Of a DNA stretch of 64,000 nucleotides, positions 11,466 to 63,677 are shown in pieces (positions within the stretch are counted from its first letter, which is position 1; each line of letters starts with the position of its first letter). Source of the stretch: Vicinamibacterales bacterium (GTDB taxonomy: Bacteria; Acidobacteriota; Vicinamibacteria; Vicinamibacterales; CAVVIG01); contig DASYQZ010000046.1 of assembly GCA_036004865.1 (NCBI GenBank), positions 11,473 through 75,472 of the forward strand, read 5' to 3'. Made by a program: the position numbers and the translations under genes. The notes under the pieces were generated by a model. It made no database searches. It worked only from the letters and a program-made list of their open reading frames with translations, and had not been told where the DNA came from.

Positions 11466-12219
11466 CGCTACGCGCGCTCATCGTCGACGACGAGCCGCTC
11501 GCGCGGCGCCGGTTGAGGACGCTGTTGAAGGCCGAAGCAGATCTCGACATCGTCGGCGAGTGCGAAGATGGCGTGTCGGCGATCGCGGAGACCCGGCGAT
11601 TGGCGCCCGACGTGCTGTTCCTCGACGTGCAGATGCCCGGCCTGGACGGCTTCGACGTCATCGAAGCGCTCGGGCCGTCGGCGCGCGCCGCGGTCATCTT
11701 CGTGACCGCGTACGACCAGCATGCGCTGCGGGCGTTCGAGGTCCATGCGGTCGACTATCTGTTGAAGCCGTTCGATCGGGCCCGACTGCGGCAGGCGGTG
11801 GCGCGCGTCCGCGCGCTCCGTGTGGACGCCGCCGAATTGGGCCGGCGCCTGCTCGCGTTGGTCGGCGACGTGACGGCCAATCGGCCGCTCGATCGGGTGG
11901 TCGTGAAGTGCGCGGCCGCGTGTACTTCGTCCGCGCCGACGAGATTGATTGGATCGAGGCCGCCGGACATTACGTGGTCTTGCACATCGCGCGCGAGGAA
12001 CATGTCATTCGCGAGTCGATCAAAACGCTTGCAGAGCGGCTGGACGCCGATCGGTTCGTCCGGATTCACCGATCGATCATCGTGAACATCGATCGCGTGA
12101 AAGCGCTCGCGCCGACGTTCCACGGCGAGTACGAACTGGAGCTGCGCGACGGTACGCGCCTGGCGTCGGCCCGGGGTTATTCGGACCGACTCCAGGCGCT
12201 CGCCAGGGGACACTTCTAA
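11462..12219 (+). pseudogene. LytR/AlgR (LytTR) response regulator, apparent -1 frame break near 11906-11914
   Basis: The receiver domain (MTLRALIVDDEPLAR..FLDVQMPGLDG..LLKPF) is in the frame of ATG 11462. The LytTR domain (RVYFVRADEIDWIEAAGHYVVLH..FVRIHRSIIVN) is in the frame of ORF 11560-12219. The switch lies between AAG (11906) and GGCCGC. Confidence 0.7.
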
Positions 12220-12328
12220 TTGCAGATTGCAGATTGCAGATTGCTGATTCAAATTGCTGATTTGCTGATTGCTGAATGCGTTTGAATTCAATCTGCAATC
12301 TGCAATCTGCAATCTGCAATCTGCAATG
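12219..12328. repeat. Palindromic periodic-unit element, CAGATTG family
   Basis: The left arm is (ATTGCAG)x3 plus ATTGCTG variants. The right arm is (ATCTGCA)x4 ending CTGCAATG. It lies between convergent stops 12219 and 12337. Confidence 0.85.
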
Positions 12329-15095: not shown

Positions 15096-15197
15096 ACACG
15101 GAAACGCAACCACGAAAGCACGAAAGCACGAAAAAGATTTTCTTGTACAAGAATGCGTTCGTGGTTTCGTGGTTTCGTGGTTGCACTTTTCGTCGTG
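15096..15197. repeat. Palindromic periodic-unit element, CACGAAA(G) family
   Basis: Left arm GCAACCACGAAAGCACGAAAGCACGAAAAAG. Centre ATTTTCTTGTACAAGAAT. Right arm CGTTCGTGGTTTCGTGGTTTCGTGGTTGC. It overlaps the start and signal peptide of the SpoIID gene. Confidence 0.85.
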
Positions 15198-16744: not shown

Positions 16745-16922
16745 CATTGCGGATTGCGGATTGCGGATTGCGGATTTATTGACGATTGCCGGATTGTGGA
16801 TTGTTGATTCGATCGGGGTTACGAGCGGCGATTCGGTTGGGGGACTCGCGAATGACGAATGCCCAAATCATCGATGACAAATCAACAATGAATCCGCATT
16901 CCGCAGTCCTCAATCCGCAATG
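16745..16922. repeat. CGGATTG-family palindromic element, long form
   Basis: Termini are CATTGCGGATTGCGGATTGCGGATTGCGGATTTATTGACG and CCGCAGTCCTCAATCCGCAATG. The internal module is shared with 63484-63677. It lies between convergent stops 16739 and 16930. Confidence 0.9.
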
Positions 16923-17697: not shown

Positions 17698-18596
17698 GGC
17701 TGTGACTTGAAAGTCTGAAGTCTTAGGTCTGAAGTCTGAGCTGTCGAAAGGATCCCGGCTCCGTCAGACTTCAGACTTCCGACTGCAGACTTACGAGTGC
17801 GTCGTCGCATCGTCAGATAAGCGGACAGCCACGGTTGTCCCCACGTGGCCGAGTGGCGGCCCGCAGTGTCGATGCGTTCGGCGGTGCCGGCCTCGATCTC
17901 CAGCAGTTTGTCGCGGATGGCGTCGAGATGTTCGAGCACGACGCGGTGCTGCGTGATGACGTGCGATTCGGCGTTGTCGGCCCCGTCGGCCCCGTCGGCC
18001 CCGTCGGCCCCGTCGGCGTTGACGCGGAAATAGCCGTACACCGGACCCGTGTCGACACCCGTGTCGATGCGCAGCAGCGTCATGCCGACGTTCCGGTCGT
18101 CGCCGGTCGCGCGCGCCCAGAAACAGCCGTGCGCGTTGCGGTACTCAGGACAGATACCTGGATGCATCACGTACGTCCCGAGCTGCGGGATCGTGAAGAT
18201 CCGCTCCTTGAGCAGCGTTTTGCAACGCGCGAGCACGAGTTCAGGCTGATGCTCGCGGATGAACGCCTCAGCCTCGGGCGAGTTCGGCGACGACACGATC
18301 AATTCCGGCGTGTCGGGCCGTTCGGGAAACCAGGTGCGCAGCCGCGCCAGCTCGCGTTGCTCCCACACGCGGTCGCCGCGCGCATGCGCGAGCCGGTAGT
18401 ACAGACGAAACGCCAACACGTCGAAAAATCGCCAGAAGCCGACGCGCGACATCTCGCGTTTGATCCGGTTCTTCAGCCGGCCGCCCGGTTCGCGGATCAC
18501 GACGGTGCCGGTGAAGGTCGAAAACGAGGCGAGCCATCGCACGAGCCCCTCGCGATCGAGCGCGGCGTCGTCATGGCAAATGAGCAGTGTCTTCAT
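17694..18596 (-). CDS. Formyltransferase-like protein (Fmt/PurN N-terminal fold)
   Basis: YVMHPGICPEYRNAHGCFWA..GMTLLRIDTGVDTGPVY resembles the formyl_trans_N core. It contains a (GAD)4 insert, and its last 30 aa or so are encoded by a GAAGTCT palindromic element. Confidence 0.6.
   Translation of the reverse strand: MKTLLICHDDAALDREGLVRWLASFSTFTGTVVIREPGGRLKNRIKREMSRVGFWRFFDVLAFRLYYRLAHARGDRVWEQRELARLRTWFPERPDTPELIVSSPNSPEAEAFIREHQPELVLARCKTLLKERIFTIPQLGTYVMHPGICPEYRNAHGCFWARATGDDRNVGMTLLRIDTGVDTGPVYGYFRVNADGADGADGADGADNAESHVITQHRVVLEHLDAIRDKLLEIEAGTAERIDTAGRHSATWGQPWLSAYLTMRRRTRKSAVGSLKSDGAGILSTAQTSDLRLQTFKSQP
17706..17797. repeat. Palindromic periodic-unit element, GAAGTCT family, copy 1
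   Basis: The arms CTTGAAAGTCTGAAGTCTTAGGTCTGAAGTCTGAG and GTCAGACTTCAGACTTCCGACTGCAGACTTACGAG are near reverse complements. It lies inside the 3' end of ORF 17694-18596. Confidence 0.85.
17976..18018 (-). repeat. 9-nt tandem repeat (GTCGGCCCC x4 plus partial) encoding GADGADGADGAD
   Basis: Perfect direct repeats, in frame, inside the formyltransferase-like ORF. Confidence 0.9.
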
Positions 18597-19958: not shown

Positions 19959-20065
19959 GTATTGCGGATTGAGGATTGCGGATTGCGGATTTATTGGGGA
20001 TTGACAGGTGAGCGGCTTGCGAATCGCGCAAAGAATCCGCATTCCGCATTCCGCAATCCGCAATG
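19959..20065. repeat. CGGATTG-family palindromic element, short form
   Basis: GTATTGCGGATTGAGGATTGCGGATTGCGGATTTATTGG ... AATCCGCATTCCGCATTCCGCAATCCGCAATG. It lies within the 3' end of ORF 19942-21282. Confidence 0.9.
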
Positions 20066-30536: not shown

Positions 30537-31721
30537 TCAGCTCTCCACCACAGAGGACACGGAGGACACGGAGGTTAAATCGGTTTTGTCCTCCGCGTCC
30601 TCCGTGTCCTCTGCGGTGGAGATGTCGCGGATATCCGCACTCGAACCAAGCACGTCGCGATATGCCGCTAACCACTGCTCCCGGACCGACGACCACGTGC
30701 ACGATTGCACACGCGCGCATGCCGCGCGGATGAGACGGTCGGCGTACGGCTGGTCATCGAGCAATCGCAGGACGTGCGCGGCGAGGCGCTCGTGATCGTT
30801 GAGCGGTGCGAGCAGTCCGCGCTCGCCGTGCGTGAGAATCGCCGGTACGCCTCCGGCTTCGGTCGAGACCACCGGCAGGCCGCTCGCGAACGCCTCGAGC
30901 ACGGAGGTCGGCATGTTGTCGATGTTCGGCGACTGAACGTAGATGTCGTTGGCGGCGTAGTAGTCCGCGATCCGATCCGGCGGCACGCGGCCGGTGAACT
31001 CGACCCCCGTCACACCCAGCTCGGTGACGAGGGCGCGGAGTGCGGCCTCCTCACTGCCGGCGCCCACCAGTGTCAGCGTCGCGTGGGGATGCCGATCCTG
31101 CACGAGCCGGAACGCGCGAATCGTGCAGGCGACGTTGTAGAGCTCGTCGAAGTTTCTCGTCGAAACCAGCCGCGGGCGAAGCGGGGCGCGCGCGCGAAAC
31201 GCGAATCGATCGAGGTCCACGATGTTCGGGATGACGCTGGCCTGGATGCCGAATTCGCGGAACACGTCGACCAGGAACTGCGACGGGACGATGTTCGCGT
31301 CGGCCTCGGCGACGGTCTTCCGCGCGATGGCCGATCGGCTGAGGTGATCGGGCGCCTCGCCGCTCCGGTAGTTCAGGATGACCGGCTTGCCCAGCGCCCG
31401 GCCGATGAGCATGGCCGGCAGCGGGGCGAGCAGATACGAGGCGTACGACGCGGAGAACACGTGCACGACGTCCGCGCGTGCGAGCTCGCGCACCAGCAGC
31501 GGCAGGTAGGTGAGCTCGTTGATCACCGTGCGCAGGTACTTGATGCCGAGCGCGAACCGCAGGCCCCTGGGCGGTAGAGGATTCACGGGCACGAGCCACG
31601 CGTCGACGTCCGGATCGTTCTCCCATGCCCGCAGCAATCGATCCGCCTGCACGGCCTGCCCGCCAAGAATCCGCAGCGAGGGCGCCACCACCGCGACCTT
31701 CAATCGCCGTCCGCCATCCAT
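30537..31721 (-). CDS. Glycosyltransferase family 4
   Basis: KVAVVAPSLRILGGQAV and NMPTSVLEAFASGLPVVSTEAGG. ATG 31721 is preferred. The C-terminal tail (STAEDTEDAEDKTDLTSVSSVSSVVES) is encoded by a palindromic element. Confidence 0.8.
   Translation of the reverse strand: MDGGRRLKVAVVAPSLRILGGQAVQADRLLRAWENDPDVDAWLVPVNPLPPRGLRFALGIKYLRTVINELTYLPLLVRELARADVVHVFSASYASYLLAPLPAMLIGRALGKPVILNYRSGEAPDHLSRSAIARKTVAEADANIVPSQFLVDVFREFGIQASVIPNIVDLDRFAFRARAPLRPRLVSTRNFDELYNVACTIRAFRLVQDRHPHATLTLVGAGSEEAALRALVTELGVTGVEFTGRVPPDRIADYYAANDIYVQSPNIDNMPTSVLEAFASGLPVVSTEAGGVPAILTHGERGLLAPLNDHERLAAHVLRLLDDQPYADRLIRAACARVQSCTWSSVREQWLAAYRDVLGSSADIRDISTAEDTEDAEDKTDLTSVSSVSSVVES
30543..30621. repeat. Palindromic periodic-unit element, GGAGGACAC (9-nt) family
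   Basis: The arms CTCCACCACAGAGGACACGGAGGACACGGAGG and CCTCCGCGTCCTCCGTGTCCTCTGCGGTGGAG are near reverse complements. It lies inside the 3' end of ORF 30537-31721. Confidence 0.85.
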
Positions 31722-33499: not shown

Positions 33500-33581
33500 C
33501 ACGACGTTCAACGCAGCACTCGCAGAAACCGCAGAGCCAACTTTTTCTGCGAGTTCTGCGAGTTCTGCGTTGCATGTCGTG
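33500..33581. repeat. Palindromic periodic-unit element, CGCAGAA(n) family, copy 2
   Basis: CACGACGTTCAACGCAGCACTCGCAGAAACCGCAGAG ... CTGCGAGTTCTGCGAGTTCTGCGTTGCATGTCGTG, between convergent stops 33490 and 33583. Confidence 0.85.
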
Positions 33582-44272: not shown

Positions 44273-45456
44273 CACGCCACCCTCTGCGCCGGCACCGGCA
44301 GCGCGGCGAATTTCCCATCGGCGATGCGTCCGCGGTATTCGATGAGCGCGCCGCACCCCGCCAGCAGGAAGAGGCCGACCTGTCCGCCCAGCACGAGGGC
44401 GTAGAACAGGTGATCGACGGCGAGCACGACGCTCGCGCAGAACATCGTGAGCATCGCGTAGGGCACCACGAGACGGCCAATCTTGTGCGACAGGTACTGC
44501 AGCCAGACGCGGTTGCGCCACGGCAGCAGCAGCCGCGGCTCGAGCGCGAGAATCTGATAGTTGCCGGCGAGCGTCCGCACCTTGCGCCGCGCCTCGGCGT
44601 CGGCGTCGACCGCCGCGCGATCGAAGGCGCGCGCGCGCTCGTTGAACACGACGCGAAATCCCGCCAGCACCACGCGCATCGGCGTCATGACGTCGTCCAG
44701 CACCGTGTCGGCCGGCAGCGGCTGAAACAGCGAGCGGCGCATCGCGTAAATGGCGCCCGTGGCGCCCAGCGTCGAGTCGATCGCGCTCTCGAGCCGCCGA
44801 ATCTGCTTCTCGTATTTCCAGTACAGCCCGACGCCGTCGGCGATGGTGGATCGCACGGTCCGGCGCCGATCGTCGATCCGGCGATCGCTGCCATCATCGC
44901 GCGCCACCTGCCGCCGCTCGAACGCCCGGCGGTCGCGGCCGGCGCGGCGGCAGGGCGACTCGGCGTCGAGCAACAGCTCGCCGGTGACCGCGCCCACGGC
45001 CGGATCGCTGAGCGGCGCGACGAGCTCGACGAGCGCGTCGGACGCGAACACCTGCCGCGCGTCCGCGAAGACGATCACGCCGAATCTGGCCCGCGCGACG
45101 CCGGCGTTCAACGCGAGCGCTTTGCCGCTCGCCGGAATCGTCACGGCGTCGACCAGGCCGTCATAGCGCGCGAGCACGTCGACCGTGTTGTCCGTCGATC
45201 CGTCGGAGACGACGACGATCTGCCGGCGGTCGGCCGGATAGTCGAGCGCCAGGAGATTCTCGATGCGGGCGGAGAGCCGCGAACCTTCGTTGCGCGCCGC
45301 GATGACAATCGACACGCCGGGCCAATCGTCAATCAATCCGCAATCCGCAATCCGCAATCCGCAGTGTCGCGCTCGTGCCCAAACGCGGAGCATCAACGGA
45401 TACCCCGCGTAGACGTAGGCGACCACCGCGATCGAGAGCCAGAACAGCAGTGTCAT
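44272..45456 (-). CDS. Membrane-anchored glycosyltransferase family 2
   Basis: N-terminal TM helix, VSIVIAARNEGSRL, VVSDGSTDNT and C-terminal TM helices. A CGGATTG half-array (HCGLRIADCGLIDDWP) sits between the TM helix and the GT domain. Confidence 0.8.
   Translation of the reverse strand: MTLLFWLSIAVVAYVYAGYPLMLRVWARARHCGLRIADCGLIDDWPGVSIVIAARNEGSRLSARIENLLALDYPADRRQIVVVSDGSTDNTVDVLARYDGLVDAVTIPASGKALALNAGVARARFGVIVFADARQVFASDALVELVAPLSDPAVGAVTGELLLDAESPCRRAGRDRRAFERRQVARDDGSDRRIDDRRRTVRSTIADGVGLYWKYEKQIRRLESAIDSTLGATGAIYAMRRSLFQPLPADTVLDDVMTPMRVVLAGFRVVFNERARAFDRAAVDADAEARRKVRTLAGNYQILALEPRLLLPWRNRVWLQYLSHKIGRLVVPYAMLTMFCASVVLAVDHLFYALVLGGQVGLFLLAGCGALIEYRGRIADGKFAALPVPAQRVA
45323..45366. 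repeat. CGGATTG-family half-element inside a CDS
   Basis: CAATCGTCAATCAATCCGCAATCCGCAATCCGCAATCCGCAGTG. No partner arm lies nearby. It is in frame in the GT2 ORF. Confidence 0.8.
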
Positions 45457-49010: not shown

Positions 49011-49023
49011 CTGTCCTCCGACC

Positions 49024-49043: not shown

Positions 49044-49074
49044 CTATCGTGTTGTTCGTCCCAACGCGGCGCGC

Positions 49075-50652
49075 TTATGCCGCCGCGACGATGTTTCTCC
49101 GTGCCCGCATCAACTCCATCGCCTTCGCGATGTACGTCCGCCGCTCATCTCTCTTCACAGCGAATGCCAGAAACGTGACGGCATAGCAGATGCCGCCGAC
49201 GGCCGCGACGAATCCGACGCTGACCAGCCCCATCGGCAGCGCCTCGCGCAGCGGGACGACGACCAGCGCCATCACCGCAATCGGCCACAACGCCGGCCAC
49301 ACCGCCTCGAGAAACGCACTCGCGGCGTTGACGCCGACGCGGCGGCATGCCGCAGGCCACAGCACGAAGATCGAGGTGAGCGCCACCGGCACGAGCGTTC
49401 CCATGGCCTGACCGACGAGGCCGTAGCGACGAATCCACAGCAGGCTCAGCGCGAGGTTCGCGAGCGCCGCGCCCGCGTTGGTGAACGCGAGCAGCCGGTG
49501 CCGTCCCGCGCCTTTCAGTAGCGTCGTCGCGGTCGCGCTGCCGACGCGAATGGCGACCACCCCGACGAGAATCTGCGCGACGAGGACGCTCTCGTCGAAC
49601 CGCGGGCCGACCCAGGCGTGAATGAGGGGCGCCGCCAGCATCACGAGCGCCGCCGCGATCGGCACCACGCTGACGAGCGAGAGCCGGGTCCCTTCGATGA
49701 AAATCGCGCGCAGCCGCTCCGGCTTTTGCCCGGCGTCGCTGTCGACGACGACGGGGAAGAGGACGCCGTTCAACTGATTCGTGAGCCGCTGCAGCATCTC
49801 GGCGAGGCGCTGCGGCACGGTCCACAGCGTGACGGCGGCGGCCGACATGAAGGCGCCGATCACGATCGCGTCGATCGAGTAGTTCAGCTTGTTCGACCAG
49901 TCGATGATCGAGACGTAGACGCTGAAGCCGGTCAGCTCGCGTACGCGCGACCAGAGAAACAGCGACGGCCGCAGCGACAGTGCCGGAAATACTCGATACG
50001 CATTGAGGCGGTACACGAAGTAGGTGAGCAGACGTACGGTCGTCGTCACCAGCACGAGCTGCACGAGACCGAAGCCCATCATCAGCATGGCGACGTTCAC
50101 AGCCGCGACAATCAGGCTGCTCACGACGCCGACGAGGTTGTTCAGGTCGTAGCGCTGGAAGCCGTTGATGATGCCGCCGAAGACGCTGAACGGGAACCCG
50201 AGCGAGACGTAGACGCCGATGATGAGCATCAGCGAGCGCGCCGTCGCTTCCTGCTCCGGCGTGATATTGACGATGCGGCCAACGTAGAAGCTCAGCGTGA
50301 CGAAGACGAGATACGCGAGCGTGCCCGTCACCGCGAAGATGCCGAAGAGCGTGCTGGCGATTTCGTTCAGACTGCGGACGTCCCGCTTCGCGCGATAGTG
50401 CGCGACGAACTTCACGATCGATCCGCCGAAGCCGAGATCGAGGACCGAGAAATACGTCGTCATCGATGCCGTCAGCATCCACAGCCCGTACGCCGAGGGC
50501 CCGAGATGGCTGATGTTGAAAGGGAGCAGCATCAACCCGATCACCGCGTCGACGCCGATGGCGAGATAGCGAGTCGACACGTTGCGCGCGACGGTCACGA
50601 GCCGACGGTCGTCGTCGCCCCACGGATCGGTGCGCACCTGGCCGCCGATCAC
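49075..50652 (-). CDS. MOP-superfamily polysaccharide flippase (Wzx-like)
   Basis: About 12-14 hydrophobic helices. GTG 50652 overlaps the upstream stop (GTGA). Confidence 0.8.
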   Translation of the reverse strand: MIGGQVRTDPWGDDDRRLVTVARNVSTRYLAIGVDAVIGLMLLPFNISHLGPSAYGLWMLTASMTTYFSVLDLGFGGSIVKFVAHYRAKRDVRSLNEIASTLFGIFAVTGTLAYLVFVTLSFYVGRIVNITPEQEATARSLMLIIGVYVSLGFPFSVFGGIINGFQRYDLNNLVGVVSSLIVAAVNVAMLMMGFGLVQLVLVTTTVRLLTYFVYRLNAYRVFPALSLRPSLFLWSRVRELTGFSVYVSIIDWSNKLNYSIDAIVIGAFMSAAAVTLWTVPQRLAEMLQRLTNQLNGVLFPVVVDSDAGQKPERLRAIFIEGTRLSLVSVVPIAAALVMLAAPLIHAWVGPRFDESVLVAQILVGVVAIRVGSATATTLLKGAGRHRLLAFTNAGAALANLALSLLWIRRYGLVGQAMGTLVPVALTSIFVLWPAACRRVGVNAASAFLEAVWPALWPIAVMALVVVPLREALPMGLVSVGFVAAVGGICYAVTFLAFAVKRDERRTYIAKAMELMRARRNIVAAA

Positions 50653-52022
50653 TTCGCGCCCTTTCCGAAGAGGATGACTTTCACCGTGTCGAGCACGATC
50701 GTCAGGTCGAAGAAAATCGACAGGTGCTTGATGTAGTAGAGGTCGTAGCGGAGCTTCTCCATCGCATCTTCGATGCTGGAGCCGTAGCGGTACTTGACCT
50801 GGGCCCATCCGGTCACGCCCGGCTTCACCGCGTGGCGCTGCATGTAGAAGGGAATCTCCTGCGCGAGCTGCGCGACGAAGAACGGGCGCTCGGGCCGCGG
50901 ACCGACGAAGCTCATGTCGCCGTTCAGCACGTTCCAGAGCTGCGGCAGCTCGTCGAGCCGCGTCAGGCGGATGAACCGGCCGACGCGCGTCACGCGCGGA
51001 TCCCGATCGGTCGCCCAGATCGGCGCCCCCGCCAGCTCGGCGTCGGTGCGCATCGAACGGAACTTGTAGATCTTGAAGACGCAGCCGTTCTCGCCGACGC
51101 GCTCCTGGCTGTAGAGCGCGGGACCGGCGGAGTCGAGCTTCACGGCAATCGCCGTCAGCAGCATCAACGGCGACGCCAGGATGAAGCCGATGAGCGAGAG
51201 CGAGAGATCGAGCATGCGCTTGACGAACCGCGTCCAGCGCGACGCGCGGAACCCGTCCGAGAAAATCAGCCAGCTTGGCTTCAGGTCGTCGATCAGAATC
51301 TTGCCCGTGAGCCGCTCGTAGGTCGTCGTCGCGTCCTCGACGCGGACGCCCGACAGCTTCGCGCGCAGCAGCGGCTCGATCGGCAGCCGGCCGCGCCGGT
51401 CCGACAGCCCGACGACGATGCGATCGACGCGGCGTTGAGCGACGAGACGGTCGATGTCGTCGACGCCGCCGAGGACATCGTGCCGGCGGACGACGGAGCG
51501 GGCTTCGCGATCGTCCCGGTCGGAAATGAAGCCGACGAGGCGATACGCGAAGTCCTGCTGCGTGCCGATTTGCTGCGCGACTCGCTGCGCCGTGTGGCCG
51601 GTGCCCAGAATCAGCACGCGCTCCTCGAGATGCGGATCGCGCGCGAAGTAGTTGAAGGTGACGCGCCAGGTGAGCACGGCGACGACGAAGACACCGAGCG
51701 CCGTGACGAACGTGCCGGGATCCAGCGCCAGCGAGGGGGTGACGAACGCGGCGAACGCGAGCACGATGGCCGCGGCCCCCGCCGCCTGCAAGAGACGGAC
51801 GACCAGCTCACGATTCGAATGGACGACGGTGAGGTCGTAGAGATCGTTGTAGTAGAAGCACAACTGGCAGAGCGCCGTGACGACGGCGATCTGCCACAAC
51901 GTGGTCCCGAGCGCCGCGCCGTGAAGACTCGTCGCCAGCGCCATTGAACCCGAGATGAGAATCACCTCGAAGCCGAAAACGGTCAGGCCTCTGACCGACA
52001 CGTTGCGATTGAAGACCTGCAT
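50649..52022 (-). CDS. Polyprenyl-phosphate glycosyl-phosphotransferase (priming sugar transferase, PEP-CTERM-associated type)
   Basis: N-terminal TM block, then [26 protein letters not shown]. Confidence 0.85.
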
Positions 52023-52038
52023 CTCCGTGGATCCCTGT

Positions 52039-52155
52039 CATTGCGGATTGAGGATTGCGGATTGCGGATTTATTGGTGATTCATTGCGGATTCATGTGTC
52101 GAGTCAATCCCAAATCCCCAATAAATCCGCAATCCGCAATCCGAGATCCGCAATG
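52039..52155. repeat. CGGATTG-family palindromic element, short form
   Basis: CATTGCGGATTGAGGATTGCGGATTGCGGATTTATTGG ... CCAATAAATCCGCAATCCGCAATCCGAGATCCGCAATGG. It fills the spacer between stop 52157 and start 52022. Confidence 0.9.
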
Positions 52156-52156
52156 G

Positions 52157-53146
52157 CTAATGCCGCGTGGCCTCGTATCGATAATCGTCTTCGAGACCCG
52201 ACTCGTTCAGCACGATGCCGATCAGGCGGGATGAATCGAAGCCGCGCAGCGCGTTCTCGATCGCCGGCTTCGGCGTGACGCCGGCGCGGACGACGAGCAG
52301 CGCGCCGTCGACCATCGGCGCCAGCACGGCGACGTCGGCGAGCGGCAGGACCGGCGGCGTGTCGAGAATGACGCGATCGAACCGCGTGCGGAGCTGATCG
52401 AGCACGCGCCGCATCGCCGTCGAGCCGAGGAGCTCCGCCGGATTGGTCGGCGTCGCGCCGGCCGGAATCACCGTGAGGTTGTAATCCGGCAGGAACTTCA
52501 TCACGTCTTTCAGCTCCGCGGCGCCCGCGAGGAACTCGGCGAGACCGGGACCCGGCGGCAGTCCGAACAGATACTGCAGCGACGGCTTCCGCAGATCGGC
52601 TTCGAGAACCACCACACGCCGCTGCAGCTCCTGCGCCATCGTCAGCGCGAGGTTGGCGGCCGTGATCGATTTGCCCTCGCCCTTCTGCGGGCTGGTGACG
52701 AGCACCGAGCGCAACGCGTGCGCGTTTTCGGCGTGCGCGAGGCGCGTCCGGAGCTGGCGGTACTGTTCCGCCGCGAGCGACTTCGGCGCGAGGCCCGCGA
52801 CGAGCAGCGGGTTCAAGCGCGTCGTGAAGCTGTCAATCTCGGTCGCGGCCAGTGAGGCCGCGCTCGTGACTGCCGCCGGCGCCGCGGCCGTGGCCCCGGC
52901 GTAAGCGGTCTGATTCGGGACCGGCGTGCCCGGAACGATCAGCGCCGGCGCTTCGAGGACCGCGGGCGGCGTCGGAATCTCAATCGTCACGGGAACGGCG
53001 GCCGTCGTAATCGGTGCGATCGGAGCGGCCGGCGGCGGCGGAGCCGGCGCCGGCGCCGGAGTCGACACGTGACTGGCCAGACGGCTCGTCCGCAGGGCGG
53101 TGCCCTCGCGTTCTGCCTTCTCCAAAATATTCTGAATGCGACTCAT
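52157..53146 (-). CDS. CapB/CpsD-like P-loop ATPase (EPS tyrosine autokinase type)
   Basis: MSRIQNILEKAERE start, Pro/Ala-rich linker, Walker A SPQKGEGKS and DTPPVLP. Confidence 0.8.
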   Translation of the reverse strand: MSRIQNILEKAEREGTALRTSRLASHVSTPAPAPAPPPPAAPIAPITTAAVPVTIEIPTPPAVLEAPALIVPGTPVPNQTAYAGATAAAPAAVTSAASLAATEIDSFTTRLNPLLVAGLAPKSLAAEQYRQLRTRLAHAENAHALRSVLVTSPQKGEGKSITAANLALTMAQELQRRVVVLEADLRKPSLQYLFGLPPGPGLAEFLAGAAELKDVMKFLPDYNLTVIPAGATPTNPAELLGSTAMRRVLDQLRTRFDRVILDTPPVLPLADVAVLAPMVDGALLVVRAGVTPKPAIENALRGFDSSRLIGIVLNESGLEDDYRYEATRH

Positions 53147-53162
53147 CTTCGTATCCTCTCGT

Positions 53163-53271
53163 CATTGCGGATTGCGGATTGCGGAGTGCGGATTCATTTC
53201 GGATTGAATTGACCAATCGGCAATCGTCAATCGGCAATCAATCCGCATTCCGCAATCCTCAATCCGCAATG
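53163..53271. repeat. CGGATTG-family palindromic element, short form
   Basis: CATTGCGGATTGCGGATTGCGGAGTGCGGATTC ... AATCCGCATTCCGCAATCCTCAATCCGCAATG. It fills the spacer between stop 53278 and start 53146. Confidence 0.9.
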
Positions 53272-53277
53272 TCGCTG

Positions 53278-54750
53278 TCACACAGCCGGTTCGATGCGTG
53301 GGATTTCTGCGAGCACCGGCAGCTCGAACTCATCACGCAGACCGCGTGCGTCGTGCACCGAGCGATCCATATATTCGCGGCCGACCATCGCGGCGCCGCC
53401 GAGGACGAAGCCCGCCGCCAGCGCCATCAACATCACGCGAAACGGCTTCGGCTTGAACGGCTCGCTCGGCAGGCCGGCGGGCACCAGCACGGCGAACTGC
53501 TCGCCGCCCTGCTTGCGCTGCAGCTCTTCGTTCAGCAGCGACGCCTGCTTCTTCTGCGTCAGATCGTTGTAGGCGTTGCGCTCGAGGTCGTACTCGCGCT
53601 GCACCGCCACCATCTGCTGCTCGACGCGGGGGGCCGATTCGACGCGCGCCTGATAGCCGCCGATCTGCGAGTTGATGGCGGCGGTCTGCCGCTGCAGCTC
53701 GGTGATGCGCATCCTGGTCGTGTCGCGATCCTTCACGAGCTGGCGGTACTCAGGGTTCGAATTGAGGATCGCCATGCGATCGGCGGCGGGACGCGTCCGC
53801 TCGGCGGCCGCCGTTTTCTCGGCGGTGGCGAGCTCGTCCTTCAGCCGGATCACCTCGGGGTGCTTGTCGGTGTAGGCGAGCTGCGCGGTGGCGAGCTCGT
53901 GGCGCAGCGCGATGAGGCGCGTGGCCGCGGTCTCGCCGGGCGTGCCCTTCGCCATCGCGACGGCATCGTCCGCGCCCTGCTGCATCGATTCGATCTGCCG
54001 CTCGATCATCGACAGGCGATCCTGCTCGCCGCGCGTCGCCGTCGCGTTCGACTCGAGCTGCCGCTGCAGCGCCGAGACCATCGCGAGGTTCGCGTTGGTC
54101 TGCTCGGGCAGGCGTCCCATGTTGGACTCTTTCGTCTGCCGCAGACGCGCTTCGAGCGAACCCAGACGCGTCTCGCTCGCGCGCAGCTGGCCCTCGATGA
54201 ACTGCGAGGTGTCCTGCGCGCGAATCTCGCGCGACTTGCTGTTCTCGTCGGCGAACACCTGCGCGAGGCGGTTGACGATGCGCTGCGCGTCTTCCGGCGT
54301 GTCGTCGGTGTACGACACGATGTAGGTGTCGAGCGACGCCTTCTGATCGGCTGAGAGCTGCGTGCCCGGACCGCTCGAACCCGGCGTGATCGAGTCGGGC
54401 ATCGACACGGAGACCCCGCCGCGCAGCTGGGCGATCGCCGAATCGATCGAGCCCTGCTTGTCGAGGTGCTCGAGGCGCGCGGTGCGCTCGAGGACGGGCC
54501 GGCTCAGGAGCTGCTGCGACACGGCGCGCATGCGCTCCTGTTTGTCGATTTCAATCGGCTGGCCCACCAGATTCGGCGCGACGCGCGCCAGGCCGACCGC
54601 AATCGTGGTGGTCGCCTGGTAGGAGCGGGGCAGCGTCCACACGAGCGCCGTGCCGATGATGATCGCCAGCACGACCGGGACGATGAACCACCATTTGCGC
54701 CGATTGAATACCGAGATGTAGTCGAGCGGATCGAAACGAGGTTCTTCCAT
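53278..54750 (-). CDS. Polysaccharide chain-length determinant (Wzz/GumC-like)
   Basis: N-terminal TM helix (WWFIVPVVLAIIIG), a long coiled-coil periplasmic region and a C-terminal TM helix (VMLMALAAGFVLGGAAMV). ATGA overlap with the upstream gene. Confidence 0.8.
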   Translation of the reverse strand: MEEPRFDPLDYISVFNRRKWWFIVPVVLAIIIGTALVWTLPRSYQATTTIAVGLARVAPNLVGQPIEIDKQERMRAVSQQLLSRPVLERTARLEHLDKQGSIDSAIAQLRGGVSVSMPDSITPGSSGPGTQLSADQKASLDTYIVSYTDDTPEDAQRIVNRLAQVFADENSKSREIRAQDTSQFIEGQLRASETRLGSLEARLRQTKESNMGRLPEQTNANLAMVSALQRQLESNATATRGEQDRLSMIERQIESMQQGADDAVAMAKGTPGETAATRLIALRHELATAQLAYTDKHPEVIRLKDELATAEKTAAAERTRPAADRMAILNSNPEYRQLVKDRDTTRMRITELQRQTAAINSQIGGYQARVESAPRVEQQMVAVQREYDLERNAYNDLTQKKQASLLNEELQRKQGGEQFAVLVPAGLPSEPFKPKPFRVMLMALAAGFVLGGAAMVGREYMDRSVHDARGLRDEFELPVLAEIPRIEPAV

Positions 54751-55958
54751 CACTGCACCCTCACAGGCTTGGACGTCACGATCTGAATTCCCACGCGATT
54801 GCGATACAACTGGCCGCCCGCGCGCAGGCTGGTCTGCTGCACGCGCGCGTAGAACCCTTCGAATCGCACCCATCGCTGCGGCTCCCAGCCGACGACCGAA
54901 TAGGTGCGCAACGACCGCAACGGGAGCTGCTGCACCAGATCGGTGAGCGGCTGGTTGTCGCGGTAGACAATGGAGTTGTCGGTGTAGAAATGGCGGCTGC
55001 CGAAGAGCGGCGCGTGGAATCCGAGGCCGACCTCGTCGTTCTGAATCGTGCCGCCGAAGCCGAACGAGGGGATGTACGAACGCGAATAGCCGACGTGGAA
55101 TGCGGACGCGCCGCGATGCCGCTCGAGCGAGATGCGCCAGGCGGGCCCGGTTCGCGCCGACGTCACCGCCGTGCTTTCGAGGTAGACCGCGCCGCCGCCG
55201 CCGCTGAACGACCAGCTCGGCGAGAGCTCGTAGTCGACGGCGCCTTCGGCCGTGTGGATGTTGAACGTTTCCAGATCGCCGACGACGTGCGCGCGGCGGA
55301 ACGAGTAGTCGGTGCCGAACGCCAGGCGCGAGTCGATCCTGTGGCGCCAGATGTTCAGCGACTCGAGGACGTCGCCGCCGCGCAGGATCGCGCGCACATC
55401 GGGCGGGCGATCGAACTCGACGTGCTGAAAGTTCACCGAGCTCGTCAACGAATCGCGCGCGCCGAACGTGTATTCGACACCGCCGCGGCCGTCAGCCGTC
55501 TTCGCGCCGGTGTGGCGATACGGGAGGCCGCCGAGCTCGACGAGGTCGGTCGACGGCAGCATCGACGCGGCGGCGCGCGCGAACCAGTTCACCCGGGCCG
55601 TCTCCTGCCGCCGGAGCTCGATCCTCATGCGCTGGTCCCAGCGATTCAGCAGGGAGAACGTCCGGTAGTTGAGAAAGCTGCCGCTGTACGAGGAGCCGAA
55701 CCGCGTGTGCTTGCCCGAGTAGTGCAGATCCAACGCGGGAAAGAACGTCGTGATGTAGTCGTCGTTCTGATTCTCCGCCGTGTTCTGACCGAACAACGAG
55801 ATGTTGTCGTCATAGGTCTCGGCGAAGCCCAGCGTCGGCGTGATCGTCCACCCTGCGCGGTAGGTCTGCGGCCTGTTGCTCGATCCGACCCGCTCCTGCG
55901 CATGCGCAGTCGCGGCGACCAGCAGCGCGGCCAGCACGACGGTTATGCGTTTCGTCAT
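54750..55958 (-). CDS. Putative outer-membrane beta-barrel protein (PEP-CTERM-locus associated type)
   Basis: Signal peptide MTKRITVVLAALLVAATAHA. The composition is Tyr/Arg/Gly/Ser-rich and alternating. It lies between the exporter and the chain-length genes. Confidence 0.55.
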   Translation of the reverse strand: MTKRITVVLAALLVAATAHAQERVGSSNRPQTYRAGWTITPTLGFAETYDDNISLFGQNTAENQNDDYITTFFPALDLHYSGKHTRFGSSYSGSFLNYRTFSLLNRWDQRMRIELRRQETARVNWFARAAASMLPSTDLVELGGLPYRHTGAKTADGRGGVEYTFGARDSLTSSVNFQHVEFDRPPDVRAILRGGDVLESLNIWRHRIDSRLAFGTDYSFRRAHVVGDLETFNIHTAEGAVDYELSPSWSFSGGGGAVYLESTAVTSARTGPAWRISLERHRGASAFHVGYSRSYIPSFGFGGTIQNDEVGLGFHAPLFGSRHFYTDNSIVYRDNQPLTDLVQQLPLRSLRTYSVVGWEPQRWVRFEGFYARVQQTSLRAGGQLYRNRVGIQIVTSKPVRVQ

Positions 55959-55960
55959 AC

Positions 55961-55994
55961 GAATCCCAATCCCAAATCCCAAATCCCGAATCCC
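55961..55994. repeat. Half-array GAATCCC AATCCC AAATCCC AAATCCC GAATCCC
   Basis: Direct 6-7 nt units fill the spacer between the Wza-like stop (55995) and start 55958. Confidence 0.75.
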
Positions 55995-56597
55995 TTACGG
56001 AACGATCACCGTATCGCCCGACCGCAGGTAAAACGGCTTCGCATCGCCGTTGATCACGTCCTTGTAGTTGAACCGGATCGTGTCGATGCCGCCGCGGTTC
56101 GGCCGCAGCACCTTCACGTCCTTCGTGTTCGCGAACTCCTTGAAGCCGCCGGCCATCGCGAGTGCCTGGAGAATCGTGGTCGGCCCGTGGAGCTGCATCG
56201 TGCCGGGGTGCGTCACCTCGCCCATCACGAACACCTGCGACGCGAGCGCTTCGACGACGATGACCGTGACCGTCGGGTTGTTGATGTAGTCCTTCAGCGA
56301 CTTCGCGATGGTGTCGCGGAGTTCGATTGGCGTCCGGCCGGTCGCTTCCATGTCGCCGACGAGCGGCAGCGTGATCTTGCCGTCGGGGCGCACCTGCACC
56401 GACTGTGAGAGCTGCGCATCCTTGTAGACCTCGATGCGCAGCTTGTCGCCGGGGCCGACCTTGTACTCGTCGTTGACCGGGGCGAGCGCCTGCGCCTTGG
56501 CTTTCTTGTCGGCGTCCTTGTCGTCCTTGGCGGCGAGCGGCGCCGCGGCGAGGCACGCCGCGAACAGGGCGGTGGAGAACGTGAGCGTCTGCTTCAT
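55995..56597 (-). CDS. Polysaccharide export protein (Wza-like, Poly_export plus SLBB)
   Basis: Signal peptide, then YKVGPGDKLRIEVY..VRPDGKITLPLVGD. Confidence 0.85.
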   Translation of the reverse strand: MKQTLTFSTALFAACLAAAPLAAKDDKDADKKAKAQALAPVNDEYKVGPGDKLRIEVYKDAQLSQSVQVRPDGKITLPLVGDMEATGRTPIELRDTIAKSLKDYINNPTVTVIVVEALASQVFVMGEVTHPGTMQLHGPTTILQALAMAGGFKEFANTKDVKVLRPNRGGIDTIRFNYKDVINGDAKPFYLRSGDTVIVP

Positions 56598-56609
56598 GGC
56601 TGTTCTACC

Positions 56610-57089: not shown

Positions 57090-57103
57090 TGTTTCCAGGG
57101 CCT

Positions 57104-61789: not shown

Positions 61790-61835
61790 AAGTCTGAAGT
61801 CTGAAGTCTAAAGTCTGAAGTTCAGACTTCAGACG
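61786..61835. repeat. Palindromic periodic-unit element, GAAGTCT family, copy 2 (asymmetric arms)
   Basis: TTGAAAGTCTGAAGTCTGAAGTCTAAAGTCTGAAG / TTCAGACTTCAGACG. It starts inside the stop codon region of ORF 61481-61789. Confidence 0.85.
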
Positions 61836-63483: not shown

Positions 63484-63677
63484 CATTGAGGATTGCGGAT
63501 TGCGGATTGCGGATTTATTGACGATTGCGCGATTGTTGATTGTCGATTCGATCGGGGTTTTGCGGTGCGTTTGGTCGGGGATGACCTCGGCGACGTCGTC
63601 AATCAACAATGAGCAATCGCAATCATCAATGACAAATCGACAATAAATCCGCAATCCGCAATCCTCAATCCGCAATG
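63484..63677. repeat. CGGATTG-family palindromic element, long form
   Basis: CATTGAGGATTGCGGATTGCGGATTGCGGATTTATTGACGATTGCGCGATTGTTGATTGTCGATTCGATCGGGG ... CAATAAATCCGCAATCCGCAATCCTCAATCCGCAATG. Its last ATG is the msrQ start. Confidence 0.9.

What the first reader, a model, noticed from the sequence alone, without database searches (positions are those of the whole stretch)
52039..53271. Dispersed palindromic elements built from tandem CGGATTG heptamers with a conserved terminal inverted repeat of about 37 nt
Five full copies are present at 16745-16922, 19959-20065, 52039-52155, 53163-53271 and 63484-63677. A half copy lies at 45323-45366. All share the termini CATTGCGG ATTG(A/C)GG ATTGCGG ATTGCGG ATTTATTG ... 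CAATAAAT CCGCAAT CC(T/G)CAAT CCGCAATG.

The two arms are each periodic with a 7-nt unit and are reverse complements of each other. They could therefore form long, register-slippable stem-loops. The variant unit ATTGAGG recurs at different unit positions in different arms, which suggests unit-level slippage.

Two copies exactly bracket the CapB-like kinase gene. I do not recognise this element from any described repeat family (REP/BIME, ERIC, Correia, MITE classes), but I cannot search.
Basis: seen in the sequence. Interest (0 to 1): 0.75.

Follow-up and report, generated by a model that had tools for sequence, protein, structure and literature searches.

The report
Palindromic heptamer-repeat elements between genes
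The window, from a soil Acidobacterium, is peppered with short DNA elements made of a 7-base unit (ATTGCGG) repeated a few times and then repeated again as its mirror image, so that they fold into very strong hairpins filling the gaps between genes; they are real and widespread, belong to a poorly understood but already noticed class of bacterial repeats, and show an unusual pattern: the hairpin stays at the same spot across species while its 7-base unit changes.

Summary
Five full ATTGCGG/CCGCAAT palindromic elements and one single arm lie at the stated coordinates (26 matches against 0.04 expected). They fold into hairpins of -54 to -103 kcal/mol.

They are not specific to this locus or lineage.
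- The window, from a Vicinamibacterales-like Acidobacterium, holds at least eight further elements of the same build with other units.
- ATTGCGG arrays occur in MAGs of many phyla and in viral contigs.

The closest described relatives are the inverted pairs of heptameric simple-sequence repeats in Xanthomonas (GGGAATC) and Nostoc (Rehm 2015). No function is known for them.

New findings:
- The capB-to-next-gene spacer holds a 7-nt-periodic hairpin in about 47 of 53 related lineages. The unit switches (ATTGCGG, ATTCGGG, CGGGGCT, ATGGCTG and others) even between lineages with 94-97% identical CapB.
- The G-rich arm came first in 32 of 32 strict inverted pairs.
- The 'half copy' and the 19959 copy lie inside glycosyltransferase ORFs and are translated. 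A GT2 linker hosts such elements in dozens of homologues.
- The Wzz-to-capB copy is absent in most relatives.

Most likely they are slippage-generated, arm-templated hairpin elements, tolerated or used as RNA hairpins that loop out intercistronic spacers. That function is inferred, not shown.

The parts
52039..52155 (.). Full ATTGCGG/CCGCAAT palindromic element. It fills the spacer between the capB stop (52157-52159) and the RBS/ATG of the Bac_transf gene (ATG at 52022).
   Evidence: RNA fold -69.8 kcal/mol (sense) and -77.4 kcal/mol (antisense), z about -12. An orthologous hairpin is present in about 47 of 53 related lineages.
53163..53271 (.). Full ATTGCGG/CCGCAAT palindromic element in the Wzz-to-capB spacer. 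It starts 6 nt after the Wzz stop and ends 16 nt before the capB ATG.
   Evidence: This spacer is short and empty in most relatives, including the closest ones (L125/L126, 92% CapB), so presence is polymorphic.
52157..53146 (-). CapB-like P-loop gene (BY-kinase-type ATPase domain) bracketed by the two elements.
   Evidence: Pfam AAA_31/ParA hits. Operon context Wzz - CapB - Bac_transf.
16745..16922 (.). Full element, long form (178 nt), between convergent genes: SpoIID-like 15069-16739(+) and polysaccharide deacetylase 16930-17697(-).
   Evidence: Fold -91.9 kcal/mol. It shares internal, non-heptamer sequence with the 63484 copy.
63484..63677 (.). Full element, long form (194 nt). It starts 1 nt after the stop of 62509-63483(+). 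Its terminal CAATG supplies the ATG of the next ORF (63675..).
   Evidence: Fold -102.9 kcal/mol. Paralogue of the 16745 copy. The ORF N-terminus MTIRFLKVVVFVAAL is read directly from the sequence.
19959..20065 (.). Full element lying inside the 3' end of the GT4/GT1 glycosyltransferase ORF 19942-21282(-). It is translated as a C-terminal tail.
   Evidence: Tail reads ...QVIADCGMRNADSLRDSQAAHLSIPNKSAIRNPQSAIQRSAL*. The stop overlaps the ATG of the next gene. Pfam domains end near residue 400 of 446. Fold -53.8 kcal/mol (sense) and -64.5 kcal/mol (antisense).
45323..45366 (-). Single G-rich arm (ATTGCGG x4.3 on the minus strand) inside the GT2 ORF 44272-45456(-). It encodes ...HCGLRIADCGLID... 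in the linker between TM helix 1 and the catalytic domain.
   Evidence: The orthologue in L103 has a full palindrome in frame at the same spot. 48 of 120 homologues carry ATTGCGG-derived peptides there.
12219..12327 (.). Same architecture with unit ATTGCAG/ATTGCTG, between convergent genes: LytTR regulator 11560-12219(+) and 12337-13533(-).
   Evidence: Fold -55.8 kcal/mol, z -6.8.
17711..17800 (.). Same architecture with unit AAGTCTG/CAGACTT.
   Evidence: Fold -41 kcal/mol, z -4.2.
61790..61835 (.). Short AAGTCTG/CAGACTT palindrome filling the 49-nt spacer between co-directional ORFs 61481-61789(+) and 61839-62519(+).
30549..30615 (.). Nonamer palindrome (CACGGAGGA / GTCCTCCGC) inside the last 26 codons of the GT1 ORF 30537-31844(-).
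15111..15182 (.). Octamer palindrome (CACGAAAG / TTCGTGGT). Its right arm encodes the start of the signal peptide (MRSWFRGFVV...) of the SpoIID-like protein.
33520..33569 (.). Nonamer (TTCTGCGAG) palindromic element between convergent genes. A similar one lies at 5900-5948.
55962..55994 (-). Single-arm array GGGATTY x4.9 (minus strand) between a stop codon and the ATG of the next co-directional gene of the EPS operon.

Best explanation
These are simple-sequence-repeat-derived hairpin elements. A 7-nt unit is amplified a few times by replication slippage. The array is mirrored into an inverted partner, so the pair forms a long hairpin. The G-rich arm is always the 5' arm on either strand.

They are the acidobacterial (Vicinamibacterales) counterpart of the convergent inverted heptameric SSR pairs of Xanthomonas and Nostoc. 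They are one unit family (ATTGCGG) among many interchangeable ones.

Once at a site they persist and are remodelled in place. Units mutate, and the variant spreads along an arm by slippage. The two arms stay complementary, either through arm-to-arm templating (intrastrand template switching) or through selection for pairing. Occasionally whole elements are copied to new sites, including permissive protein linkers and gene ends.

They occupy transcribed spacers at 3' ends of genes and between cistrons. There the RNA hairpin begins about 1 nt after the upstream stop codon and ends just before the downstream ribosome-binding site. The spacer is thereby looped out, which brings stop and start together. 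The effect would be that of a REP-like mRNA hairpin: a 3'-end barrier or processing site that preserves translational coupling.

Shown: the anatomy, the abundance, the phylogenetic spread, positional persistence with unit turnover, the polarity, the presence/absence polymorphism and the translation inside ORFs. Inferred: slippage and templating as the generating mechanism, and any RNA-level role.
For: - Reality and structure: 26 hits against 0.04 expected. Hairpins of -54 to -103 kcal/mol, z -7.8 to -12.4.
- Period 7 dominates tandem arrays. There were 47 non-ascertained period-7 arrays against 4-9 for each of periods 5, 6, 8 and 9 in 0.85 Mb. TRF on the capB loci gave the same picture.
- Spread: ATTGCGG x3 occurs in more than 118 stretches of MAGs from Acidobacteriota, Planctomycetota, Verrucomicrobiota, Gemmatimonadota, Chloroflexota, Bacteroidota and others. 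It also occurs in 60 viral-contig stretches.
- Positional persistence: 46 of 53 distinct capB-downstream spacers have 7 as their best period. Most are strongly structured.
- Geometry: the hairpin starts a median 1 nt after the stop and ends a median 13 nt before the ATG, in 47 lineages.
- Unit turnover: the unit differs between lineages whose CapB domains are 94-97% identical. Intermediate units lie one step apart.
- Orthology within the ATTGCGG class: a shared variant unit, ATCTCGG, sits at position 2 in six lineages.
- Polarity: the G-rich arm came first in 32 of 32 strict pairs across four data sets. 'Always convergent' is reported for Xanthomonas too.
- Copying: the 16745 and 63484 copies share internal sequence. 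The Wzz-to-capB spacer is filled in some lineages and empty in others.
- Context: the window's elements sit in co-directional or convergent spacers. None sits in a clearly divergent spacer. Rehm et al. report the same bias, and that the repeats are transcribed.
Against: - There is no direct evidence of transcription, processing or any effect on expression in this organism.
- Sense and antisense RNA folds are about equally stable. There is therefore no G-U signature of selection at the RNA level.
- Within the ATTGCGG class only 1 of 18 consensus pairs shows a compensatory change. Covariation evidence exists only between unit classes, where wholesale replacement cannot be excluded.
- Elements inside ORFs and overlapping start codons fit tolerance as well as they fit function.
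- Slippage and template switching were not observed. Near-identical strains (99.9%) show no copy-number difference.
Confidence: 0.55

Rival explanations
1. They are functionless mutational by-products, a kind of genomic weed. In these lineages 7-nt slippage and hairpin-templated copying are frequent. Palindromic arrays therefore arise and turn over wherever they do no harm: spacers, protein linkers and gene tails. Their position and polarity reflect only purifying selection against harmful configurations.
For: - Elements are translated inside ORFs, in flexible linkers and C-terminal tails.
- Presence or absence differs between relatives.
- Many interchangeable units exist.
- There is no RNA-specific stability bias.
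- They are also present in viral contigs.
- No function was found in Xanthomonas or Nostoc despite tests.
Against: - A hairpin is retained at the capB-downstream spacer in about 47 of 53 lineages, while only a minority of spacers carry one overall.
- The geometry is tight: stop+1 to ATG-13.
- Polarity is 32 of 32.
- The GCGG/CCGC cores are invariant across lineages whose flanking genes have diverged.
Confidence: 0.3
2. They are non-autonomous mobile elements of the MITE, REPIN or RPE type. A trans-acting enzyme, for example an IS200/IS605-type or RAYT-like single-strand transposase that recognises the hairpin, copies them. Different unit families at one site would then reflect repeated insertion into a hotspot.
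For: - There are paralogous copies with shared internal sequence.
- The filled and empty Wzz-to-capB site has clean boundaries.
- In-frame insertion in a GT2 gene resembles Rickettsia RPEs.
- Wholesale unit replacement occurs between close relatives.
- Short-read contigs break at the repeats.
Against: - No target-site duplication longer than 1 nt at any of the 5 full copies.
- No GTAG or CGTC tag (with definitions from PMC3733652).
- No transposase among about 40 window ORFs scanned, although 64 kb is a small sample.
- The shared variant unit ATCTCGG across six lineages shows in-situ persistence rather than re-insertion.
- The same architecture with dozens of units and periods of 7, 8 and 9 would need many specificities.
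Confidence: 0.25
3. They act at the DNA level, in one of two ways. They could be non-B DNA (G-quadruplex, i-motif or cruciform) or protein-binding arrays that influence replication, supercoiling or transcription. Or they could be contingency loci, where a 7-nt slip in ORF-embedded arrays switches glycosyltransferases of the EPS cluster on and off.
For: - G-rich heptamer repeats of Xanthomonas and Nostoc form G4 in vitro.
- Arrays sit inside three glycosyltransferase ORFs of a polysaccharide cluster. Seven is not a multiple of three, so a one-unit slip would shift the frame.
Against: - ATTGCGG has only GG runs, so canonical three-tetrad G4 is impossible. Yet it behaves like the G4-capable units.
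- No out-of-frame alleles and no copy-number differences were seen among the strains and homologues retrieved.
- Most copies are intergenic and next to ordinary metabolic genes.
Confidence: 0.08

Closest known systems
Inverted pairs of heptameric SSRs in Xanthomonas (GGGAATC) and Nostoc PCC 7120 (GGGGA(C/T)T), Rehm et al. 2015, PMC4692102
   Same: - 7-nt units with typically about 4 copies per arm.
- 70-75 pairs per genome, 'always' in convergent orientation, which equals G-rich arm first.
- About 90% intergenic, close to the end of the upstream ORF, and rare between divergent genes.
[quoted passage not shown]
- Transcribed. Function unknown.
   Different: - The unit here (ATTGCGG) cannot form a canonical G4, so G4 cannot be the common denominator.
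- The hosts are Acidobacteriota and other soil phyla.
- Several unit families and periods (7, 8, 9) coexist in one genome.
- Also documented here: unit switching at an orthologous site between close relatives, persistent translated copies inside ORFs, and conserved element-specific inner boundaries (ATTTATTG).
STRR (short tandemly repeated repetitive) heptanucleotides of heterocystous cyanobacteria (Calothrix/Nostoc; Mazel et al. 1990, from my own knowledge, and as cited in PMC4692102)
   Same: Tandem heptanucleotide arrays, dispersed in about 100 or more copies, mainly intergenic, function unknown.
   Different: STRRs were defined as direct arrays with the units CCCCAGT, TTGGTCA and CAACAGT. 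Palindromic pairing with fixed polarity is not part of their definition. I recalled the units from memory and did not test them here.
REP/BIME and REPIN elements (Enterobacteria, Pseudomonas)
   Same: Abundant hairpin-forming extragenic elements in 3' UTRs and intercistronic spacers. REPINs are inverted doublets of about 100 nt. Proposed roles include mRNA 3'-end stabilisation and attenuation. These elements probably work like them.
   Different: - REPs are 20-40 bp imperfect palindromes with a GTAG (or CGTC) tag, and are linked to RAYT transposases (PMC3733652).
- The elements here have no tag.
- They are built of tandem 7-nt units.
- No RAYT is found in the window.
Rickettsia palindromic elements (RPE; Ogata et al. 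2000, from my own knowledge; mentioned in PMC3733652)
   Same: Palindromic repeats that are found in frame inside protein-coding genes and are translated.
   Different: RPEs are 100-150 bp non-periodic elements restricted to Rickettsia. Here the inserts are heptamer arrays, and the same linker site hosts different units in different lineages.
TAACTGA direct heptamer repeats of Beggiatoaceae, cyanobacteria and Bacteroidetes (MacGregor 2015, PMC4679880)
   Same: A specific heptamer amplified 2-6 times in intergenic regions. Patchy distribution across distant phyla. Position tightly linked to start codons.
   Different: TAACTGA sets are direct repeats: 169 direct sets against 1 inverted. They sit just upstream of start codons and do not form hairpins.
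MITEs / Correia (NEMIS) elements
   Same: Short, with terminal inverted repeats, dispersed, and able to be co-transcribed and form hairpins.
   Different: MITEs have target-site duplications and non-periodic arms derived from IS ends. Neither is seen here.

Membership tests
Heptameric SSR inverted pairs (Xanthomonas/Nostoc type, Rehm 2015) | Tandem arrays of a 7-nt unit, at least 2 units, typically about 4 | tested here: met
   TRF gives period 7 with 4.3-4.4 copies in each arm.
Heptameric SSR inverted pairs (Xanthomonas/Nostoc type, Rehm 2015) | Two arrays close together on opposite strands in convergent orientation (G-rich arm first) | tested here: met
   All 5 full copies in the window, and 32 of 32 strict pairs in all held DNA. 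Definition taken.
Heptameric SSR inverted pairs (Xanthomonas/Nostoc type, Rehm 2015) | Mostly intergenic, close to the upstream ORF end, rare between divergent genes | tested here: met
   Window contexts. The hairpin starts a median 1 nt after the stop in 47 lineages.
Heptameric SSR inverted pairs (Xanthomonas/Nostoc type, Rehm 2015) | G-tracts of at least 3 G able to form G-quadruplexes (unit GGGNATC or GGGGAYT) | tested here: not met
   The unit ATTGCGG has only GG. Some sister units in relatives (ATTCGGG, CGGGGCT) do have GGG.
REP / REPIN | GTAG (or CGTC) tetranucleotide tag at one end of a 20-40 bp palindrome | tested here: not met
   Ends read CATTGCGG...CCGCAATG with no tag. Definition from PMC3733652.
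REP / REPIN | Associated RAYT (IS200/IS605-like Y1 transposase) in the genome | tested here: inconclusive
   None among about 40 ORFs of the 64-kb window. The rest of the genome is not available.
MITE (including Correia) | Target-site duplication flanking terminal inverted repeats | tested here: not met
   Flanks of the 5 copies share at most 1 nt. Comparison of filled and empty sites shows a clean insertion.
Intrinsic (Rho-independent) terminator | GC-rich hairpin followed by a U-tract | tested here: not met
   No terminator-like site in 51900-53400. The flanks contain no T-run.
Any Rfam RNA family | Match at or above the gathering score | tested here: not met
   0 hits at gathering on the whole window. 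Only sub-threshold hits to plant miRNA precursors at E<=1.
Contingency (phase-variation) locus | Repeat-number polymorphism between strains that shifts a reading frame or promoter spacing | tested here: inconclusive
   Six contigs of the same strain (99.8-100% identical) have identical copy numbers. Homologues retrieved as proteins are in frame by ascertainment.

The most novel reading that the evidence does not exclude
'Heptad hairpins' would be a widespread, functionally selected class of operon RNA element in soil phyla (Acidobacteriota, Planctomycetota, Verrucomicrobiota, Gemmatimonadota and others). The element is a stem made of repeating 4 G-C plus 3 A-U blocks with an obligatory G-rich 5' arm. 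It loops out the intercistronic spacer to couple or meter translation and to protect or process the upstream cistron. When embedded after a first transmembrane helix, as in the GT2 linker, it would programme a translational pause. Its sequence would be free to turn over because only the periodic pairing and the polarity are selected.
Probability: 0.12. Interest if true: 0.85.

Novelty: new variant of a known kind. Interest (0 to 1): 0.58.

Why it matters
Heptameric repeats have been reported as over-represented in bacterial genomes since 2007, and nobody knows why. Here the same architecture occurs with a unit that cannot make G-quadruplexes. It occurs in abundant but barely cultured soil phyla, and it comes with three constraints that any explanation must satisfy.
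- The hairpin persists at an orthologous operon junction while its unit is replaced.
- The polarity is strict, with the G-rich arm 5'.
- The geometry is tight, running from the stop codon to the ribosome-binding site.

This points to the hairpin, not G4 formation, as the common denominator. It also gives concrete, testable handles: polarity inversion, deletion in an EPS operon, and copies inside ORFs.

There is a practical side too. These elements break short-read assemblies. They also create spurious or extended ORFs and odd peptide motifs (CGLRIADCG..., NPQSAIRNPQ...) in predicted proteins of MAGs.

Tried and rejected
- Rfam, at gathering on the whole window and at E<=1 on 51.9-53.4 kb: nothing except sub-threshold hits to miRNA-precursor models, which is generic for long hairpins.
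- Exact-sequence literature search for the 14-mers: 0 papers.
- The idea that ATTGCGG is special because it has no stop codon in any of the six frames: true, but so are 50% of all heptamers, so I dropped it.
- RNA-level selection through G-U pairs: sense and antisense folds are equally stable across 53 spacers.
- Classical covariation within the ATTGCGG class: 1 of 18 pairs is compensatory and the arms are simply conserved.
- Target-site duplications: none.
- Sigma-70 promoters and intrinsic terminators in or next to the elements: none.
- Transposase or RAYT in the window: none among about 40 ORFs.
- Lineage-specific family: rejected, because the unit is found in many phyla.
- 'Any heptamer would give as many hits': partly rejected. 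Three composition-matched shuffled units gave 5, 9 and 13 viral-contig stretches, against 60 for ATTGCGG. ATTGCGG is a favoured unit but not unique.
- My crude GC3-based gene map is imperfect in several gaps. I used contexts only where Pfam or the JGI gene calls agree with it.
Full report
**1. Observation**

The sequence at 51950-53350 shows the two elements as described. The 14-mer CGGATTGCGGATTG, with at most 1 mismatch, occurs 26 times in the 64-kb window. All hits fall in the six reported places. Dinucleotide-preserving shuffles give 0.04 expected, maximum 1. Tandem Repeats Finder reports period-7 arrays of 4.3-4.4 copies (ATTGCGG or AATCCGC) in every arm. The window is 66% G+C.

As RNA, the five full copies fold into almost uninterrupted hairpins:
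- 19959 copy: -64.5 kcal/mol on the + strand and -53.8 on the - strand.
- 52039 copy: -77.4 and -69.8.
- 53163 copy: -72.5 and -68.8.
- 16745 copy: -91.9.
- 63484 copy: -102.9.

The z-scores run from -7.8 to -12.4, and no shuffle does as well. The two copies do bracket the CapB-like gene 52157-53146(-). One ends 1 nt from its stop codon, the other 16 nt from its ATG.

Three corrections to the finding:
- CAATAAAT is present in only two of five right arms, and ATTTATTG in four of five left arms.
- The 'half copy' lies inside an ORF.
- The 19959 copy also lies inside an ORF (see section 6).

**2. The same architecture recurs in the window with other units**

and direct reading show the following:
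- ATTGCAG/ATTGCTG palindrome at 12219-12327.
- AAGTCTG/CAGACTT palindromes at 17711-17800 and 61790-61835.
- An octamer palindrome at 15111-15182.
- Nonamer palindromes at 30549-30615, 33520-33569 and 5900-5948.
- Single-arm arrays, for example GGGATTY at 55962-55994.

ATTGCGG is therefore the commonest of several unit families in this genome. It is not a unique element.

**3. Whose genome, and how widespread**

The CapB protein is encoded, identically, on six metagenome contigs (JGI and Logan). They are 99.8-100% identical to the window and show no indels or copy-number differences. The short Logan contigs end inside the repeats.

All but one of the records are labelled as MAGs. They come from Acidobacteriota (Vicinamibacterales, Pyrinomonadaceae, Blastocatellia), Planctomycetota, Verrucomicrobiota, Gemmatimonadota, Chloroflexota, Bacteroidota (Saprospiraceae), Binatia, Armatimonadota, Hydrogenedentota and a few proteobacteria.

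One of them, L103, is a Vicinamibacterales MAG. It is syntenic with window 38943-47402 at about 75% nucleotide identity, which places the window's organism.

Many of these loci show the same layout: ATTGCGG x3-5, a spacer, then CCGCAAT xN. Others pair ATTGCGG arrays with arrays of related units.

In these 0.85 Mb, perfect arrays of at least 3 copies number 179 for period 7, against 4-15 for periods 4-6, 8 and 9. After removing the ascertained unit class, 47 period-7 arrays of 37 unit classes remain.

The pattern also occurs in 60 stretches of IMG/VR viral contigs. Three composition-matched shuffled units gave 5, 9 and 13 stretches, and GGGATTC gave 15. ATTGCGG is thus a favoured unit, but heptamer arrays in general are common.

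**4. Comparative anatomy of the capB junctions**

A protein-anchored scan of metagenome contigs returned 80 loci with CapB relatives of 43-92% identity.

*Downstream spacer (capB stop to next gene; window 52023-52156).* Of 53 distinct spacer sequences:
- 46 have 7 as their best autocorrelation period.
- Most fold far better than shuffles.
- Nearly all have a G-rich 5' half and a C-rich 3' half.
- In the 47 spacers with a substantial hairpin, the stem starts a median 1 nt after the stop codon (IQR 0-4.5). It ends a median 13 nt before the ATG (IQR 4.5-18.5). It spans a median 90 nt with 37 pairs.

The unit differs between lineages. Observed units include ATTGCGG, AATGCGG, AGTGCGG, ATTCGGG, ATTTGGG, ATGGCTG, CGGGGCT, GGGGACT, AAGGGCT and CGGTGCT. 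Switches occur between lineages whose CapB C-terminal 220 residues are 94-97% identical:
- L139 (ATTCGGG) against L142/L185 (CGGGGCT): 97%.
- L157 (AATGCGG) against L154 (ATTGCGG): 97%.
- L131 (ATGGCTG) against L133 (ATTGCGG): 94.5%.

Units are linked by one-step intermediates. For example, GGGATTC, GGGACTC and GGGGCTC are each one step apart, and L142 carries two of them side by side.

Within the ATTGCGG class the elements are orthologous. A derived variant unit, ATCTCGG, sits at position 2 of the left arm in the window, L125, L150, L156, L160 and L172. In that class the GCGG/CCGC cores are invariant, and only 1 of 18 consensus pairs shows a compensatory change.

*Upstream spacer (Wzz stop to capB ATG; window 53147-53277).* This spacer is short and empty in most relatives. 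An example is TAG-CGACGAGAGGATATTGAG-ATG in L145. The closest relatives, L125/L126 at 92%, also lack the element. The spacer carries elements of various units in the window, L133, L135/L142, L165, L136, L147, L148, L168 and L175.

Comparing filled with empty sites shows a clean insertion with at most 1 nt of ambiguity. No target-site duplication is present.

**5. Polarity**

I examined every strict inverted pair of perfect heptamer arrays (at least 17 nt per arm, at most 250 nt apart) in four independently ascertained data sets. The G-rich arm came first in 32 of 32 pairs, with one further G=C tie and none C-first (the earlier pooled count was 28 of 28). The pattern searches covered both strands, so ascertainment did not impose this arrangement.

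**6. Elements inside coding sequence**

- *GT2 linker.* The 'half copy' 45323-45366 lies in the GT2 ORF 44272-45456(-). It encodes ...RHCGLRIADCGLIDDW..., between the N-terminal hydrophobic segment and the catalytic domain (Pfam from residue 46).
- *Orthologue in L103.* It has a full palindrome in frame at the same place...YCGLRNADCELNPSINPQSAIRNPQY....
- *Homologues.* Among the best 120 homologues, the linker between GYPLLL and VSIVIAARNE ranges from 19 to 58 residues among the 103 in which both motifs could be located. Forty-eight carry exact tetrapeptides of the ATTGCGG translation (IADCGLR / NPQSAIR). Fifteen have both arms, always G-arm first. Other linkers are translations of other units: RLQTSDF from CAGACTT, GMRNAECG...SAFRIPHSA from AATGCGG.
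- *19959-20065.* This copy forms the last 40 or so codons of the GT4/GT1 ORF 19942-21282(-). Pfam domains end near residue 400 of 446, and the stop overlaps the next gene's ATG.
- *30549-30615.* The nonamer palindrome forms the C-terminal tail of the GT1 ORF 30537-31844(-).
- *15111-15182.* The right arm of the octamer palindrome encodes the signal-peptide start of the SpoIID-like protein.
- *63484-63677.* The terminal CAATG of this copy supplies the ATG of the next ORF.

**7. What it is not**

- No Rfam family matches.
- No sigma-70 promoter or hairpin-plus-U terminator pattern is present.
- There is no GTAG or CGTC tag as in REPs.
- There is no target-site duplication as in MITEs.
- No transposase appears among about 40 ORFs scanned. 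The window is a large polysaccharide-biosynthesis cluster with sigma-54 regulators.
- Copies 16745 and 63484 do share non-heptamer internal sequence. Whole elements have therefore been copied at least once.

**8. What is known**

Full-text search found no paper containing the repeat sequence. The kind, however, has been described.
- Heptameric SSRs are reported to be over-represented in many bacteria. Polymerase slippage over a 7-nt contact was proposed as the cause. This is work of 2007 by Mrazek and colleagues, as summarised in PMC4679880 and PMC4692102.
- Rehm et al. 2015 found 183-186 GGGAATC-type arrays in each of two Xanthomonas genomes. Typically they have four units, and about 90% are intergenic.
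- Their arrays lie on average 28 nt from the upstream ORF and are rare between divergent genes.
[quoted passage not shown] They are transcribed. No function was found.
- MacGregor 2015 described TAACTGA direct repeats with a patchy cross-phylum distribution.

The present elements match the Xanthomonas/Nostoc type in every tested feature except G4 capacity, since ATTGCGG has only GG runs.

**9. Mechanism: most likely reading and its status**

*Shown:*
- Periodic palindromes with strict polarity.
- Long persistence at an operon junction, with rapid unit turnover.
- Occasional gain at new sites.
- Tolerance inside permissive coding segments.
- A geometry that leaves only the ribosome-binding site outside the stem.

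*Inferred:*
- Arrays grow and shrink by 7-nt slippage.
- The arms are kept complementary by intrastrand templating or by selection for pairing. This is needed to explain how both arms change unit together.
- On the mRNA the hairpin loops out the spacer, so the upstream stop codon and the downstream RBS are juxtaposed. An insertion of 100-190 nt is therefore harmless to, or useful for, translational coupling.
- The stable stem can act as a REP-like 3' barrier or processing site.

The polarity might reflect avoidance of exposing a C-rich, Rho-loading 5' arm. This is speculation.

*Against a selected RNA role:*
- Sense and antisense stabilities are equal.
- Compensatory change within a unit class is nearly absent.

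The main rivals are pure mutational by-products and transposase-driven mobile elements. They are not mutually exclusive with the reading above.

**10. Verdict**

The feature is real and striking, and abundant in under-studied phyla. It is a new variant, in unit, hosts and behaviour, of a known but unexplained kind of bacterial repeat.

What the literature held here does not report:
- Positional persistence with unit switching.
- The generality of the polarity rule.
- The persistent translated copies.

The function remains untested.

Noticed in passing
window 16052-16194: Inside the SpoIID-like ORF 15069-16739(+) there is a 143-nt array. Its period is 11 (AAGTCGGAGTG) with a 33-nt super-period, and it is itself partly palindromic (AGTCCGACT/AGTCGGACT). 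It looks like an in-frame 11-residue repeat built from the same kind of hairpin-forming short units.
   Followed up: partly
window 17976-18017: A perfect 9-nt array, GTCGGCCCC x4.7, lies in a region whose coding status I could not resolve. The competing ORFs are 17694-19145(-), with a weak Formyl_trans_N hit, and 17835-18602(+).
   Followed up: no
window 21239-28852: Three asparagine-synthase (AsnB-like) paralogues lie in this stretch on the minus strand, the first two adjacent and the third about 1 kb further on, followed by a heparinase II/III-like gene. Heptamer arrays sit at or near their boundaries. TGATGGC at 22491-22519 appears to lie in the inter-domain region of the first AsnB. GGTCGTG at 28276-28300 lies at the heparinase end, near the AsnB start.
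   Followed up: partly
window 63675-63998 and 15153-15200: Two genes seem to start inside the 3' arm of a palindromic element. In one, the ATG lies within the terminal CAATG. In the other, the signal peptide is encoded by TTCGTGGT repeats. Their initiation regions would be buried in hairpins of about -100 kcal/mol unless an upstream ribosome opens them.
   Followed up: partly
L004-L006 (Logan contigs), window 52126-53264: Short-read assemblies of the same strain break exactly inside the heptamer arms. These elements are therefore a systematic cause of contig fragmentation in soil metagenomes.
   Followed up: partly
L240, L244 (IMG/VR contigs): Some contigs classed as viral carry 6-7 ATTGCGG arrays within 9-13 kb. 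I did not check whether these are genuine phages of the same hosts, proviruses or misclassified chromosomal DNA.
   Followed up: no
L125/L126 upstream spacer of capB (about 47 nt before the ATG): Where the window has the 53163 element, the closest relative has a different small hairpin, GTAGCTGCAGGCC...GGCCAGGAGCTAC. The spacer differs entirely at 92% CapB identity.
   Followed up: no
P0001-P0120 (GT2 homologues): Predicted proteins of many soil MAGs contain peptide motifs that are simply translated heptamer arrays: CGLRIADCG, NPQSAIRNPQ, RLQTSDF, GMRNAECG. Such motifs could mislead clustering or motif discovery in protein databases.
   Followed up: partly
window 42157-61314: The elements sit in a large polysaccharide locus. 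It includes Poly_export, Wzz, a CapB-like gene, Bac_transf, Wzx-like and Wzy_C genes, several GT2 and GT4 genes and UDP-glucose dehydrogenase. Two sigma-54 response regulators and a histidine kinase flank it.
   Followed up: partly
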